Assembly: GCF_011386835.1 (NCBI RefSeq)
Contig: NC_088800.1
Span: 27,156,001-27,220,000 of the forward strand
Direction of reading: 5' to 3'
DNA length: 64,000 nucleotides
Source of the DNA: Chrysemys picta bellii
Lineage: Eukaryota
Positions within the stretch are counted from its first letter, which is position 1; each line of letters begins with the position of its first letter. Below, piece after piece: positions 3,001-12,000 of the stretch. A program made the position numbers.

Positions 3001-6000
3001 TATTTGATACCAAATTGTATCCTTGAGTCACCTTCCTTCTAGGAAATGTATTGCATATGGCACGCTATGAAAATGACCAAATTCTGAATAAATGTGGTAG
3101 ATATTTAGTCAATACCAGCCTCTACCTGAAAGTTCTCTCATAAATACAGACTTTTCAATATATCTTGCCATTTGTAATTACTTGCAGCAAGTGGTCCAAG
3201 GAAGTCTACTGCTGTAAACAGGGTTTGTTTGGGCTCATTACCGTCACATTGCTATCTTATGCATGCAAGTTGTATTGATGAACACGATACTATAGCCATT
3301 TTTGCTATCATGTAGGCTTCACGAGTTGAATTGTCTTCTAGTGCCAGTTCTTGATTTTTTGATCAATGCCACTTCAACAGAAGTTCAACACTGGTGTCTG
3401 GCAAGCCATTAAAGTTTAATGTATTCATAGACACTCTGGCAGCAGTGAGGATGAAAAAAAAGATATCACATGCAATGGGGTTAGAGAACAAAGCAGCCTT
3501 ATATAGCTATGAGCCAAGAAAAGCTCATGCTGCTCTTAAATTAGGTCTTGTCTACAGGAACATTTATTGCATTGCAAACAGGGGTATAAATCTACCCTGC
3601 AGTAAGTGTCTGTGTGGACCCTGCTCCCTCATGCTAAAAATTCTGAAACGCACTTCAATCTACCCTGTTTTGAAACTGGGAAGATAAAAGTGTCCGGCAG
3701 CAGAGTCCACAGAGTTAGTGCGCAGCAGGCGAGTGTAGGATAGATTTACACCCCAGCTTGCCAGACACAAGCCCGTAGATAGCCTTCTAGATTTGTCAAG
3801 GTTCTGATCTGCTTGCATTCTTTATTCTCTCCCCAACAGCAACAGTCAGAAAGAGAAAAAAGGGTAGGGATCCAATTGATTCTCCCGCCCTCCCCCTTGC
3901 AAATCTCTGATATTACTTAACATTAAGAATAACAGACCAAGGGAATGACAAGGGATTTATTACAGTTTCCACAGCCTTTCTTAGCTCAAGACCACCAGAG
4001 AATTTTTACCAGGGTACATATACGTACTGAAATCAGCCAGTGACAATACAGTCACCTAAAGTATGGCCTCAGTCCAGGTACTAGCGGGCAGATGTTCATA
4101 GTATAAAATTCTGAACATTTGACAAAAACTAAACATTCCATGGCAGTTTTAGTAAAGGAGTCAATGACTGAATTAACAGTAAGACTAAATTTATCAGCAG
4201 AATTTGTCCTAACCATACCTGGTTTAATCCACGGTAACAAAGCTGCATGGAAAAGTATGTCCTGACACTGCACATTTGCACCTTCCTCTAGCTAGAGAGA
4301 GACCTTCAGTCTTAAGAGCTGTCAACCTGACCCTTTTCAGAAGCACAAGATATACTGAGTGTCCCTGCTCAATTTTTCTGCAAAACATCCAAGATAGATC
4401 AGATAAGCAAGTAAAGGGACTAATAAATTTGGATTTCTTTTAAGACCATGTCTACAAATGAATGTGTTACCTTGCAGGATATAACTAATGTGATAAATAT
4501 GATTTTGCCCTGAGTAGGGACAAGGACAGTAATGTTTAAGTGTGTTAGCTGGTTGAATTTAGCTCAAGGGATAACTACAACCAACCAACATTTTTAAACA
4601 CAACTTGTTCCTATCTATCCTGGACCCTAAGATGTACTTAATGTAGTTAATTAGAAAGTTTTAAATGATGCATTTTTCCAAAAAACTAAGAATAAGGTAG
4701 TCTCATAGTTGCTGACTAAGAAAAAGTTAAAATTAGTGCTGAGTTAAAAAAATAACATAATATAGTTAGTGAAATTCCCATTAATTAATTGTTACTAGTA
4801 AAATTAGGGACATTCTAACAATATAAGTGAGATTAGACTTCAAGTGTCAAACAGTATACCTCATAGAAGATATTTCTAAAATAAAGCTTGCTAGCCTATC
4901 CATAAGTCTGAACAATTCAATAAGCATAATATAACAAATATACAATACCTGCAAAGTTTGTCTGGTTTTAACTTGCATTTCTTATCTTCTGGTTGATTTG
5001 CATCATAACAGCATTCATCTTTACACTGGTCACTGTATCCACAATCACACTGCTCTCCCTCTTCTACCATTCCATTACCACAGATGGGCTGGCCAGACTC
5101 TGAAAAATGTCAGTATATTTTTGTAACACTACAGAATATCAAAGACATGCATGGTAAAAGACGGTTACTCACCGTTGTAACTGTTGTTCTTCGAGATGTG
5201 TTGCTCATATCCATTCCATTAGGTGTGTGCGCGCCGCGTGCACGATCGTCGGAAGATTTTCTACCCTAGCAACACCGGCGGGTCGGCTGTGGAGCCCCCT
5301 AGAGTGGCGCCTTCATGGCGCTGAATATATACCCCAGCCGACCCGGCGCCCCCTCAGTTCCTTCTTGCCGGCTACTCCGACAGTGGGGACGGGGGGCGGG
5401 TTTGGAATGGATATGAGCAACACATCTCGAAGAACAACAGTTACAACGGTGAGTAACCGTCTTTTCTTCTTCGAGTGCTTGCTCATATCCATTCCATTAG
5501 GTGACTCCCAAGCCCAACTTAGGTGGTGGGGTCGGAGTGAGACATTGCTGTGTGCAAAACTGCTGATCCGAAGGCAGCATCGTCCCTGGACTGCTGCACT
5601 AGTGCATAGTGCGCTGTAAACGTGTGGACTGATGACCAAACCGCAGCTCTACAAATGTCCTGGATCGGAACTTGCGCCAGGAAAGCCGTCGAGGAAGCTT
5701 GGGCCCTCGTGGAGTGAGCGGTGAGGTGCGGTGCTGAGACACCTGCCAGGTCATAGCAAGTCCGGATGCAAGACGTAATCCAGGAGGATAGGCGTTGTGA
5801 GGAGACCGGTGAGCCTTTCATTCGGTCAGCCACTGCAACGAAGAGTTGCGTCGTCTTTCTAAAGTGCCTTGTGCGGTCAATATAGAAGGCCAGGGCCCTG
5901 CGTACGTCCAGAGAATGCAAACGTTGATCCTGGCGAGTGGCATGTGGTTTAGGATGAAAGACCGGGAGAAATATATCCTGGTTGATATGAAAAGGAGAAA

Positions 6001-9000: not shown

Positions 9001-12000
9001 TATAGCGGCTCAAGAGCGCCTGCTGGTTAGCCGCTCTAAGTTGCAGCCCTCCGGCTGAGTAAACTTTACGGCCGAATAAATCGAGGCGCTTAGCCTCCTT
9101 TGATTTGGGCGCTGCGGCCTGCTGACCGTGGCGCTCCCTTGCGTTCACTGATGCCACCACCAGTGAACACGGCTGGGGGTGGGTATACAAGTACCCGTAG
9201 TCTTTAGACGGGACAAAGTATTTCCTTTCCACCCCTCTCGCTGTGGGTGGGATAGAGGCAGGAGTCTGCCATATCGTAGAAGCATTGGCCTGTATCGTGC
9301 GGATCAGGGGTAACGCCACCCTCGATGGGGCATCCGCTCCGAGGATATTCACGATCGGGTCGTGCACCTCCACTATCTCCTCCGCCTGCAGGTCCATATT
9401 ACGGGCCATCCTGCGCAGAAGATCCTGGGGAGCCCGAAGATCTATTGGAGGTGGGCCTGTGCACGATGTGCCCACCACTGCCTCATCCGGAGAAGAAGAG
9501 GAAGATGCCTCCGGTGGAACAGGATCCAAGGGCTGGTCCTGGTCTCCCTGTTCCTGGGCCGGAGCATCACCTGCGCCTGGGTCCAGGGCGTCAGGTGGTG
9601 CGGACACAGAAGCCTCCATGCCCCCTGGCGGAGGCCGAGAAATGGTGGACTCCGGGGCCCTTCTGACGGAGTGACCGGAGCGAGAGGTCGAAGCAATTGG
9701 AGCCCCTTGCGCCTGATGGTACGCCCACGGGGTCCAAAACGACCAGTGAGATGGGCCATGAGAATGGTCCTCTGTCGTGTCCTGCCAATGTCCCAAGTCC
9801 TGTTCCTCGGCTTGCCCCTGAGGGGGGTATGCCGATCTCGAGAGGTCCTCCGAGGAGCGGGACACCGATCTCGATGGCCACGGCGGTGCAGAGAGCGTCG
9901 AGACGATTCCCGTGGGCTGCGGTGCCGCACGGTGCCGGTCCGGAGATGATCTATCTCTACGCGGTGCCGGCGATCGGTGCCGGGACCGCGACCGGTGCCG
10001 ATGACCTCGTCGGTGCCGGGAGTCGGATCTGGACCTCGACGAGGACCTGGAGTATGCCCGGTGCCGGGAGCGGCCTCTCGACGTCGAGCGTCGACCGTAG
10101 CGGTGCCGAGAACTACGTCTCGACGTTGATCGGTGCCGACGATCATAGCGGTGCCGAGACGTAGAGCGGTGCCGCGAAGAAGATCTTGGCCGCGAGTACG
10201 ACCGGTGCCGAGGCGATATTCGGCGCCGGGACTGCGAGCGGCGTGGGGACCTGCTTCGGGACCTGGATCGGTGCCGAGGTTCCAGCCCTTGCGATGGAGG
10301 GCGCATCAAGGCAGGTTTCCCCCTCGACTGGACCGGGCGAGTCAACGGTGCCGTCGGTGCCGGTGGTTGGGGTGGTGCCGGCTCCGTGAGAGCTATTAAG
10401 TCTCTCGCCGCCGCGAAGGTCTCTGGAGTCGACGGGAGGCACTGTATCACCGCCGGTCTCGGTGGAGACGCTATCTGCACCGGACTCAACGGCCTCGGCG
10501 CCGGAGTCGACGGTGCTGGAGGCACCTGTTTCCGGTGCTCCACCGGCGGACGCGGCTCTACCCCCGGCACTGGGGGAGCCGGCGTCTTCGGCACGGAGGT
10601 CCCCGTCTTATGGGCTTTTTTATGCCCCGGGGATAATGACCGGCGCCGAGGCACTTGCTGTGCTTGCGGTGCCGACGAGGTCCGGTGCCGGGGAGGCTTG
10701 TCCGACGCCACTCGCGTGGTCGTCGTGGCCGGTGCCGCCGGGGCACTGCGCACCGAGGCGCTAGGTGCCGGGGCCTGGCTTGTAGATGGAGCGTCCGGAC
10801 TAAGTGCCGCCTCCATCAGGAGTTGCCGGAGCCGAAAGTCCCGCTCCTTCTTGGTCCTTGGTCTGAAGGCCTTACAGATCTTGCACTTATCTGTTTGATG
10901 GGACTCTCCCAGGCACTTCAGACAGGAGTCGTGCGGGTTGCTCGTGGGCATAGGCTTAGCGCAGGAGGCGCACTGCTTGAAGCCGGGAGCGTTGGGCATG
11001 AGCCCGGCCCCGCGGCCGGGGGAGAAAGGGGGAGACGACCCCCTTAATCCCCTGAACTAGAATAACAACTAAAACAACTTTAAACTATTTAACTATAAAC
11101 ACTAGAACTACAACTATAACTATAACTGCGAATGTAACTAAGCTAGGGAGAGTGGAGAACAGCTAAGCAGCGCTCCACAGTTCCAACGACCGTCAGGGGC
11201 GGTAAGAAGGAACTGAGGGGGCGCCGGGTCGGCTGGGGTATATATTCAGCGCCATGAAGGCGCCACTCTAGGGGGCTCCACAGCCGACCCGCCGGTGTTG
11301 CTAGGGTAGAAAATCTTCCGACGATCGTGCACGCGGCGCGCACACACCTAATGGAATGGATATGAGCAAGCACTCGAAGAAGAACTTGTAGTTAAATTAT
11401 CATATGACATAGTTAAGCATGATTGCATCTTGAGTAGACATTGCCAATTAGTATTGGAAGTGTAGGTGTGTTGCAGATTAGGATTTTATAGGGAAACTTG
11501 AACAATACTCTTCAGCATCCAGTTTGTTGATTTCTACTACATATTTTGTTCTCATTTTGTATTCAGAACTTCCACTAATAACAATGGGAACTTCTTGTGC
11601 AAAAGAAAAGTTAGATCAGAGCTCAGTTAACTCTTTAGCATTTTATAAGGGTGACAAAAATACATACCAACAAAACAATTATTTCTTTTTTTCTCAAGAA
11701 CTTGGCTGATATTTCGAACGCTACAGAGGGAGAATTTATTGTTGTTAAGCTTGTCCCCAGATGTAGCTCTTGCATACATGATATAATTGCCATTTTCTTT
11801 CTGCCCCAAGTTTTTGGACTCTCCTGGAGTGCATTCCGTTCCAGAATCATGCTGCAAAACAGAACATTGTAAACTATTTCAAGCAGATCAGTTTCTATTG
11901 GTTAATTTGCTATCTTTCTACCTATGTGTATAACAGACCTGTGTGGGGTAATAGGGTGAGAAACAAAAGCTCATACAAAATTGTTGCCTTTTTAAAAAGT

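What the first reader, a model, noticed from the sequence alone, without database searches (positions are those of the whole stretch)
5156..11384. Young full-length DIRS1 element in sense orientation inside a small intron of ADAM10
Seen: the ITRs are 166/166 identical, CpGs are abundant compared with the flanks, and the YR ORF is intact. Removing the element leaves an intron of about 341 nt (6568-6227). The insert is 56 nt from the exon 11 acceptor and 283 nt from the exon 10 donor. Established: ADAM10 is the Notch alpha-secretase and is essential in mouse development. Inference: a recent, possibly polymorphic insertion that may affect splicing or expression.
Basis: partly seen in the sequence, partly recalled or inferred. 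Interest (0 to 1): 0.65.

Follow-up and report, generated by a model that had tools for sequence, protein, structure and literature searches.

The report
Young DIRS1-like retrotransposon in turtle ADAM10 intron
A structurally complete, recently inserted DIRS1-like retrotransposon lies in the same orientation as the ADAM10 gene inside one of its introns in what looks like a turtle genome; this is an ordinary kind of event whose effect on the gene is untested.

Summary
Window 5156-11384 (6229 nt) is one DIRS1-like tyrosine-recombinase retrotransposon on the minus strand, the strand of ADAM10. It has inverted termini with a 166-nt exact core. Two adjacent internal complementary regions match the outer ends of the termini 63/63 and 40/40. 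There is no target-site duplication.

Coding content:
- gag-like ORF1: open.
- pol (RT, RNase H, Dam-like part): one in-frame premature stop and no frameshift.
- Recombinase ORF: open, 953 codons, overlapping pol. Its model matches Cre recombinase.

Closest relatives are turtle proteins. ORF1 is 95% identical to a Chrysemys picta bellii protein.

The flanking exons match ADAM10 at 60/61 and 44/49 residues and adjoin in the protein. The intron is 6568 nt and would be 339-341 nt without the element. The element lies 56 nt from the acceptor and 283 nt from the donor.

Youth is supported by 0 mismatches in 269 paired repeat positions and by CpG o/e of 0.82 against 0.16-0.23 in the flanks.

Polymorphism, splicing effects and assembly correctness could not be tested: no vertebrate genome, reads or RNA data were on hand. 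This is a known kind of element, of modest interest.

The parts
5156..11384 (-). Whole DIRS1-like retrotransposon, 6229 nt; genes read on the minus strand
   Evidence: Bounds are set by the outermost bases that are complementary to the internal complementary regions. GC and CpG jump at both bounds. There is no second copy in the window.
11200..11384 (-). Left (5') terminus. The outer 15 nt (11370-11384) are the divergent part; the conserved inverted repeat is 11200-11369, with its exact core at 11204-11369
   Evidence: The outer 40 nt (11345-11384) are 40/40 complementary to 5464-5503.
11000..11199 (-). AT-rich untranslated leader between the left terminus and ORF1, with a short 6-nt tandem repeat at 11101-11127
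8549..10999 (-). ORF1, gag-like, 816 aa, no internal stop. It has an N-terminal Cys/His-rich stretch, an Arg/Ser-rich middle and a C-terminal part related to the LAP2alpha domain
   Evidence: It is 95.5% identical over 816 columns to a 814-aa Chrysemys picta bellii protein. A profile of 13 relatives matches PDB 2v0x_A (LAP2alpha) at E=0.0019. 5 of 13 relatives match Pfam LAP2alpha; the window copy alone reaches only E=0.066.
9970..10210 (.). Degenerate 18-nt tandem repeats that encode the Arg/Ser-rich middle of ORF1
6517..8667 (-). pol, 717 codons including the terminal stop. It is broken once by an in-frame stop and has no frameshift. The RT domain is 7690-8175 and the Dam-like (MT) part is 6691-6987, with RNase H between them
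   Evidence: Count of stops. RVT_1 E=1.2e-21. Dam PF05869 E=0.0018, below Pfam's cut-off. pol is collinear without gaps with sibling P0274, which reads through. 103 of 150 distant relatives carry both halves in one protein.
5519..8380 (-). Tyrosine-recombinase ORF, 953 codons and open, overlapping pol in another frame. The recombinase proper is about 5519-6589
   Evidence: 829 relatives, with turtles best. Conserved R163, K195, H292, R295, W318 and Y328 are present. The model has pLDDT 90.7 and its best PDB match is Cre recombinase at E=1.1e-09. The overlap is 657 open codons against at most 302 in 1000 codon shuffles.
5403..5503 (-). Two internal complementary regions. 5464-5503 is complementary to the start of the left terminus. 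[quoted passage not shown] They overlap by 2 nt
   Evidence: 40/40 and 63/63
5156..5370 (-). Right (3') terminus: conserved inverted repeat 5201-5370, divergent part about 5184-5200, right extension 5156-5183
11668..11851 (-).
   Evidence: 60/61 identical to PDB 8esv_A residues 188-248, E=1.7e-36. Residues 394-454 of turtle ADAM10 P0299. AG and GT at its edges.
5100..11667 (-). ADAM10 intron, 6568 nt, phase 1, holding the element
4949..5099 (-).
   Evidence: 44/49 identical to PDB 2ao7_A. It matches residues 250-298 of 8esv_A, directly after the upstream exon. 98% identical to P0299.

Best explanation
This is one copy of a DIRS1-like retrotransposon family of turtles. It entered an ADAM10 intron of about 341 nt, in the gene's orientation, and has changed very little since.

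Shown here:
- the element's anatomy: inverted termini, two internal complementary regions, and gag-like, pol and recombinase ORFs;
- its strand and position relative to the two ADAM10 exons;
- the lack of a target-site duplication;
- the perfect pairing of its repeats and its undecayed CpG content;
- one premature stop in pol.

Inferred from the published model for this family (Cappello model as described in PMC7192593 and PMC3266345):
- A subgenomic transcript is reverse-transcribed.
- The left terminus is rebuilt from the right one, and the outermost ends from the internal complementary regions.
- The recombinase inserts a circular form by crossover at a short shared sequence. Here that is the TT common to both ends, which leaves no duplication.

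Because those repeats are rebuilt at each cycle, their identity dates the insertion as recent. As it stands this copy cannot make full-length pol. Either it was copied with help from sibling copies, or the stop arose after insertion, or the stop is a sequencing error.

The likely effect on ADAM10 is small (inference). The 56 nt kept upstream of the acceptor cover the usual branch-site distance. The sense strand of the whole intron has no AATAAA or ATTAAA, and only a few splice-like sites.
For: Termini and complementary regions. Their sizes are a 40- and 63-nt ICR pair, a 28-nt right extension and a 166-170-nt conserved repeat. These resemble AcDIRS1/2 (40-58 and 39-60, extension 26 and 28, repeat 140 and 136) and XtDIRS3 (41-65, 34, 123) in Table 3 of PMC3266345.

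Genes:
- RVT_1 E=1.2e-21.
- Dam-like E=0.0018.
- Cre-like fold E=1.1e-09, TM 0.64/0.70.
- Recombinase catalytic-type residues kept.
- gag-LAP2alpha link.

Family: turtle relatives rank first. gag is 95% identical to a Chrysemys picta bellii protein. The RT part is 95.6% and the RNase H/MT part 97.7% identical to P0274 of the same species.

Host.

Youth: 0 mismatches in 269 paired positions, and none of the 19 CpG per arm set differs between arms. CpG o/e is 0.82 against 0.16-0.23 in the flanks and 0.32 in an old DIRS-like remnant in the same gene.

No duplication: the flanks CATGGT and CTTGTA differ.

Signals: no polyA hexamer on the sense strand, 2 donor-like and 6 acceptor-like sites.
Against: - No other genome, reads, RNA or methylation data could be consulted. 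The empty site, the insertion's frequency, its assembly and any splicing effect are therefore unobserved.
- The repeat clock rests on a replication model shown experimentally only for Dictyostelium DIRS-1.
- With zero differences the clock gives only an upper bound: at most about 1.1% pairwise divergence at 95%.
- The nearest siblings seen are 2-5% different in protein, so no burst of identical copies was shown.
- pol has a premature stop, which argues against this copy being a source element.
- The Pfam matches for the recombinase (E=0.0076) and for Dam (E=0.0018) are below the curated cut-offs.
- The splice-signal scan is a crude consensus count, not a calibrated predictor.
Confidence: 0.8

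Rival explanations
1. The insertion is old and fixed. Its repeats stayed identical and its CpGs stayed intact for another reason, such as gene conversion between the arms, germline hypomethylation of this locus, or selection on an exapted function.
For: Nothing here shows the insertion's frequency or phylogenetic spread. Turtles are said to evolve slowly (recalled, not checked), so a zero-difference bound of about 1.1% can still span millions of years.
Against: The flanking intron and the rest of the gene are strongly CpG-depleted (o/e 0.16-0.23). An older DIRS-like remnant in the same gene has decayed to 0.32, and its matches lie in overlapping pieces. All three ORFs are still open or nearly so across 5.5 kb. 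The premature stop in pol argues against selection for the coding capacity of this copy.
Confidence: 0.1
2. The element is real, but its placement in this intron is an assembly artefact: a repeat copy mis-joined or placed in a gap-filled intron.
For: It is a multi-copy family (792 LAP2alpha-like regions in the painted turtle genome, PMC4495291), and repeats invite mis-assembly. No reads could be examined.
Against: Both junctions are clean to the base. The element ends exactly where complementarity to the internal regions ends. The remaining 339-341 nt form a normal intron with intact GT and AG and matching exon phase. There is no N in the window.
Confidence: 0.05
3. It belongs to another tyrosine-recombinase group (Ngaro or PAT-like) or is an LTR retrotransposon, not a DIRS1-like element.
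For: Some distant relatives in the protein search have pol and recombinase fused in one protein, for example P0136 and P0138. The Dam-like match is weak.
Against: No direct repeats of any kind flank or split the element. The only direct repeats are the 18-nt coding repeats. The terminal repeats are inverted and are paired with two internal complementary regions. A Dam-like part is present, which Ngaro lacks according to PMC3266345. No integrase-type (DDE) family was reported by Pfam for any ORF.
Confidence: 0.03

Closest known systems
DIRS1-like elements of the painted turtle described by Abascal et al. 2015 (PMC4495291; passages read)
   Same: Same host group. ORF1 is related to the LAP2alpha domain and is followed by RT, RNase H and a phage-integrase-like recombinase, with inverted terminal repeats. 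The window's ORF1 and pol are 95-98% identical to Chrysemys picta bellii proteins.
   Different: That paper describes the family in bulk (792 regions) and no single insertion. It draws RT and RNase H as separate ORFs, whereas here they share one frame interrupted by a single stop. I did not see its supplement, which may list loci.
AcDIRS1/AcDIRS2 (Anolis carolinensis) and XtDIRS3 (Xenopus tropicalis), Piednoel et al. 2011 (PMC3266345; passages and Table 3 read)
   Same: Size is 5.9-6.2 kb there and 6229 nt here. Termini are built alike: a short divergent part, a long conserved inverted repeat, and a right extension of 26-34 nt there against 28 here. ICR pairs are 39-41 and 58-65 nt there against 40 and 63 here. 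A long pol/recombinase ORF overlap is reported for AcDIRS2 and XtDIRS3.
   Different: The two ICRs overlap by 2 nt of exact complementarity here, not the 3-nt circular junction described there. The conserved repeat is longer here (166-170 nt against 123-140). Recombinase identity to lizard and frog relatives is only 41-51%.
Dictyostelium DIRS-1 (as described in PMC7192593; abstract and passages read)
   Same: Inverted terminal repeats whose outer ends are repeated side by side in an internal complementary region near the right end. It encodes gag, RT/RNase H, methyltransferase-like and tyrosine-recombinase functions. Integration leaves no duplication.
   Different: DIRS-1 is a 4.8-kb element of an amoeba with an 88-nt ICR (33+55). 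No sequence comparison with it was made here. The mechanism was tested only there.
Ngaro and PAT-like elements
   Same: They also encode RT/RNase H and a tyrosine recombinase.
   Different: According to PMC3266345 and PMC7192593 they are bounded by split direct repeats, and Ngaro lacks the methyltransferase-like part. The window element has inverted repeats, ICRs and a Dam-like part.

Membership tests
DIRS1-like retrotransposons | Inverted terminal repeats | tested here: met
   170 nt at 99% with 166 exact. A gapped alignment gives 187-188 nt at 97.3%.
DIRS1-like retrotransposons | Two adjacent internal complementary regions near the 3' end, complementary to the start of the left terminus and to the end and extension of the right terminus | tested here: met
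   5464-5503 against 11345-11384 is 40/40. 5403-5465 against 5156-5218 is 63/63. The two regions overlap by 2 nt.
DIRS1-like retrotransposons | Tyrosine recombinase instead of a DDE integrase | tested here: met
   Cre recombinase is the best PDB fold match (E=1.1e-09, TM 0.64/0.70, model pLDDT 90.7). R163, K195, H292, R295, W318 and Y328 are kept, in 46-50 of 50 relatives. Sequence matches are weak: Pfam E=0.0076 and PDB profile E=0.0017. Pfam reported no DDE integrase family.
DIRS1-like retrotransposons | pol with reverse transcriptase and RNase H | tested here: met
   RVT_1 E=1.2e-21 in the window copy. RNase H is shown through relatives: 14 of 20 aligned pol proteins match RT_RNaseH, and the window copy is collinear with them. 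The window pieces alone gave no RNase H Pfam match.
DIRS1-like retrotransposons | Methyltransferase-like part after RNase H | tested here: inconclusive
   Pfam Dam PF05869 gives E=0.0018 and 18.4 bits, below the 28.1-bit cut-off. 4 of 20 relatives match at E<=0.01. The position after RNase H is as described in PMC3266345.
DIRS1-like retrotransposons | gag-like first ORF of the vertebrate lineage, related to the LAP2alpha domain | tested here: met
   The profile of 13 relatives matches PDB 2v0x_A at E=0.0019. 5 of 13 relatives match Pfam LAP2alpha, best 4e-07. The window copy alone reaches E=0.066. The link is described in PMC4495291.
DIRS1-like retrotransposons | No target-site duplication | tested here: met
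   The bases outside the two ends differ. Only the 2-nt TT inside both ends is shared.
Ngaro / PAT-like elements | Split direct repeats at the ends | tested here: not met
   No direct repeat of 30 nt or more in 4000-13000 other than the 18-nt coding repeats.
LTR retrotransposons (Ty3/gypsy and relatives) | Direct long terminal repeats and a DDE integrase | tested here: not met
   The repeats are inverted, not direct. No integrase family was found in Pfam scans of the ORFs.
ADAM10 (host gene) | Flanking exons encode adjoining ADAM10 sequence, closer to ADAM10 than to ADAM17 | tested here: met
   E=1.7e-36 for ADAM10 against 2.6e-07 for ADAM17. The two exons cover residues 188-248 and 250-298 of chain 8esv_A. 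Ten exons in the window match residues 69-566 of a named turtle ADAM10.
ADAM10 (host gene) | The exons are numbers 10 and 11 | not testable with these tools
   Residues 1-68 lie outside the window. No annotated record was on hand. The flanking exons are the 8th and 9th of the ten coding exons seen.

The most novel reading that the evidence does not exclude
The family is still active in this turtle lineage. The ADAM10 copy would then be a segregating insertion that alters ADAM10 transcripts in carriers. Routes could include use of splice-like sites inside the element, or read-out from the element into the disintegrin-encoding exon. That would offer a natural allele of an essential Notch-pathway protease in a reptile.
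Probability: 0.08. Interest if true: 0.55.

Novelty: new member of a known kind. Interest (0 to 1): 0.27.

Why it matters
DIRS1-like elements are a well-described but little-studied class, and turtles are usually described as having quiet genomes (recalled, not checked). A copy with perfectly paired repeats, undecayed CpGs and nearly all reading frames open suggests transposition in the recent past of this lineage. It also gives a dated marker inside a conserved, essential gene.

For ADAM10 itself the expectation is a tolerated intronic insertion. It would matter more only if it proved polymorphic and changed splicing.

One practical point: reference annotations name this family's ORF1 'serine/arginine repetitive matrix protein 2-like' and fuse its parts into host gene models. 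That is an annotation error worth flagging.

Tried and rejected
1. I first read the two open pieces of pol as lying in different frames, that is, as a frameshift. One search showed they share one frame, so the break is a single in-frame stop.

Whether identical copies exist elsewhere therefore stayed unchecked.

3. The structure model of the C-terminal 316 aa of ORF1 from 16 sequences had pLDDT 53.3. That is too low for a fold search, so none was run. Only the long helical hairpin is suggestive.

4. Pfam on the single window ORF1 gave nothing at E<=0.01. The matches of the ORF1 profile to the DHX8, SNRNP27 and NELF-E chains fall in the Arg/Ser-rich stretch, and I take them as compositional.

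5. The Rfam gathering scan of the whole window gave 0 matches.

6. Two other long ORFs, at 17870-18481 and 37847-38410, gave no Pfam family.

7. No vertebrate genome collection was available. Empty site, other copies and orthologous introns were therefore not examined.

8. A search for papers holding both 'ADAM10' and 'DIRS' as whole words found 0. A search on DIRS in turtles listed 12 of 16 papers, none about recent DIRS activity in turtles by title. I read none of them.

9. Supplements of the three papers used were not opened.

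
Full report
**What is there.**
- Window 5156-11384 stands out from its surroundings. GC is 0.58 against 0.39, and CpG o/e is 0.82 (427 CpG) against 0.16 and 0.23 in the 5-kb flanks.
- It is bounded by an inverted repeat. The repeat tool gives 170 nt at 99%. A gapped alignment gives 187-188 nt at 97.3%.
- This is the only inverted repeat of 80 nt or more in the window.
- No second copy of the element is in the window, and the window has no N.

**Terminal architecture.**
- Just inside the right terminus lie two adjacent segments. 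5464-5503 is 40/40 complementary to the outermost 40 nt of the left terminus (11345-11384). 5403-5465 is 63/63 complementary to the outermost 63 nt of the right terminus (5156-5218). The two overlap by 2 nt.
- This is the layout that Piednoel et al. 2011 give for DIRS1-like elements: conserved and divergent parts of the inverted repeats, a right extension, and two internal complementary regions meeting at a circular junction (PMC3266345, passages and Table 3).
- The sizes here are ICRs of 40 and 63 nt and a right extension of 28 nt. They fall next to those listed there for Anolis AcDIRS1/2 (40-58 and 39-60; 26 and 28) and Xenopus XtDIRS3 (41-65; 34).
- The bases outside the two ends differ, so there is no target-site duplication.
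- Both ends carry TT where the two complementary regions overlap. Plain subtraction gives 6229 and 339.

**Genes.** All lie on the minus strand.
- *ORF1* (10999..8549, 816 aa) has no internal stop.
  - It is 95.5% identical over its whole length to a 814-aa Chrysemys picta bellii protein that its source names 'serine/arginine repetitive matrix protein 2-like'.
  - A profile of ORF1 and 12 relatives matches the LAP2alpha C-terminal domain structure 2v0x_A at E=0.0019.
  - 5 of 13 members match Pfam LAP2alpha, best 4e-07. The window copy alone reaches only E=0.066.
  - Abascal et al. 2015 traced the LAP2alpha domain to ORF1 of DIRS1-like elements and counted 792 such regions in the painted turtle genome (PMC4495291, passages).
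- *pol* (8667..6517) spans 717 codons including its terminal stop.
  - It contains exactly one internal in-frame stop and no frameshift. The stop lies in the RNase H-coding part.
  - The RT domain matches RVT_1 at E=1.2e-21.
  - The part after RNase H matches Pfam Dam (N6-adenine methyltransferase) at E=0.0018, below the curated cut-off. 4 of 20 aligned relatives also match Dam, and 14 of 20 match RT_RNaseH.
  - A Chrysemys picta bellii protein, P0274, is 95.6% identical to the part before the stop and 97.7% to the part after it, without gaps. It reads through and ends at the same terminal stop.
  - 103 of 150 distant representatives also carry both parts in one protein.
- *Recombinase ORF* (8380..5519) is open for 953 codons and overlaps pol in another frame.
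  - Within the pol span, 657 codons of that frame are open. Codon-order shuffles give a mean of 118 and a maximum of 302, and 0 of 1000 reach the observed value.
  - Long overlap of this kind is reported for half of the annotated DIRS1-like elements.
  - The last 356 aa have 829 relatives at E<=0.001. The best are turtle proteins (76% Gopherus flavomarginatus, then Chelydra, Eretmochelys and Chrysemys), followed by softshell turtles, coelacanth, lizards and frogs.
  - R163, K195, H292, R295, W318 and Y328 of this stretch are shared by 46 to 50 of 50 aligned relatives. That these are the catalytic set of tyrosine recombinases is recalled knowledge.
  - A structure model from that alignment has mean pLDDT 90.7. 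Its best solved-structure matches are Cre recombinase chains (3crx_A E=1.1e-09, TM 0.64/0.70), followed by Xer recombinases and lambda integrase.
  - Sequence-only matches are weak: Pfam Phage_integrase at E=0.0076 and Tre recombinase at E=0.0017.

**Host gene.**
- I searched the spliced model exon by exon and left the joined step out.
- The exon 11851..11668 is 60/61 identical to ADAM10 chain 8esv_A residues 188-248 (E=1.7e-36; best ADAM17 chain 2.6e-07).
- The exon 5099..4949 is 44/49 identical to ADAM10 chain 2ao7_A and covers residues 250-298 of 8esv_A. The two exons therefore adjoin, with one codon split across a phase-1 intron.
- The best full-length named match of the downstream exon is a turtle ADAM10, P0299 from Macrochelys suwanniensis, at 98%. 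Mammalian entries are 86-90%.
- tblastn with P0299 finds ten coding exons in the window, all on the minus strand, covering residues 69-566. Residues 1-68 and 567-749 are not in the window. The exon numbers 10 and 11 are therefore plausible but unverified.
- With the turtle-type element family and the turtle-best ADAM10 match, I take the window to be from a turtle, most likely Chrysemys picta or a near relative (inference). I did not take it for human.

**Position and likely effect.**
- The intron 11667..5100 is 6568 nt. It has 56 nt between the element and the acceptor and 283 nt between the donor and the element.
- Element and gene share the minus strand, so the orientation is sense.
- On the sense strand the whole intron has no AATAAA or ATTAAA. 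It has 2 sites matching at least 8 of 9 positions of the donor consensus and 6 pyrimidine-rich acceptor-like sites, all inside the element.
- The retained 56 nt include the short pyrimidine run and the usual branch-site distance (recalled as 18-40 nt).
- I infer that normal splicing is probably kept. This was a crude scan and no RNA data were available.

**Age.**
- In the model described by Malicki et al. 2020, the left terminus is restored from the right one and the outer ends from the complementary region. That paper showed experimentally for Dictyostelium DIRS-1 that the complementary region is essential (PMC7192593, abstract and passages).
- On that model the 269 paired positions were identical at insertion, and they still show 0 mismatches. 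None of the 19 CpG per arm set has changed.
- Zero in 269 bounds pairwise divergence at about 1.1% (95%). At an assumed, unchecked rate of 1e-9 per site per year, that is under roughly 6 million years, and less if CpG sites mutate faster.
- An older DIRS-like remnant in another ADAM10 intron (54900-56130, minus strand, 28-40% identical) has CpG o/e 0.32.
- 'Young' is therefore supported, but only as an upper bound.
- 'Polymorphic' is untested. So are the possibilities that the pol stop is a sequencing error, arose after insertion, or was inherited from a broken template.

**What stayed unchecked.**
- Supplements of the cited papers were not opened. The supplement of PMC4495291 may list painted-turtle loci.
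- A model of the ORF1 C-terminal part was too poor to use (pLDDT 53.3).
- No paper in the searched library holds both 'ADAM10' and 'DIRS'.

**Verdict.** The element is a new copy of a known kind, ordinary in nature. The only points of note are its apparent youth in a turtle genome and its sense orientation close to a splice acceptor of an essential gene.

Noticed in passing
window 54900-56130, minus strand: This is an old, degraded DIRS-like remnant with RNase H/MT-like and recombinase similarity of 28-40% in overlapping pieces. It lies in another ADAM10 intron, also in sense orientation. Its CpG o/e is 0.32.
   Followed up: partly
window 49704-50039, plus strand: Weak reverse-transcriptase similarity (22.6% over 115 aa, E=1.7e-04) to the element's RT. 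It is probably a different, old retroelement.
   Followed up: no
proteins P0271, P0273, P0275, P0281, P0282, P0286, P0289, P0292-P0294: Reference annotations name this family's ORF1 'serine/arginine repetitive matrix protein 2-like'. Other turtle gene models named after host genes carry stretches 57-88% identical to ORF1, which suggests fused or contaminated models. Examples are hepatocyte growth factor activator, a calcium channel subunit, NEDD4 and zinc finger protein 189.
   Followed up: no
window 9970-10210 (ORF1): Degenerate 18-nt tandem repeats encode an Arg/Ser-rich stretch of about 100 aa. It draws matches to RS domains of splicing proteins such as DHX8, which I take as compositional.
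   Followed up: partly
window 5156-5183 and 5436-5465: The right extension carries a donor-like site matching 8 of 9 consensus positions on the sense strand, 16 nt from the element's end and about 70 nt upstream of the ADAM10 acceptor. Its complement lies in the internal complementary region.
   Followed up: no
window 5519-10999, minus strand: ORF1 and the recombinase ORF are in the same reading frame, separated by two stops (one being ORF1's own). pol lies in another frame, which is open for 67 codons upstream of its first ATG and overlaps ORF1 by 119 nt.
   Followed up: partly
window 30257-30352 and 38660-38755: Two direct copies of a 96-nt sequence, 95% identical and 8.4 kb apart, probably copies of a short interspersed repeat.
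   Followed up: no
window 17870-18481 (+) and 37847-38410 (-): Two ORFs of 203 and 187 aa in GC-richer patches, with no Pfam family at E<=0.1. They may be chance ORFs in other repeats.
   Followed up: partly
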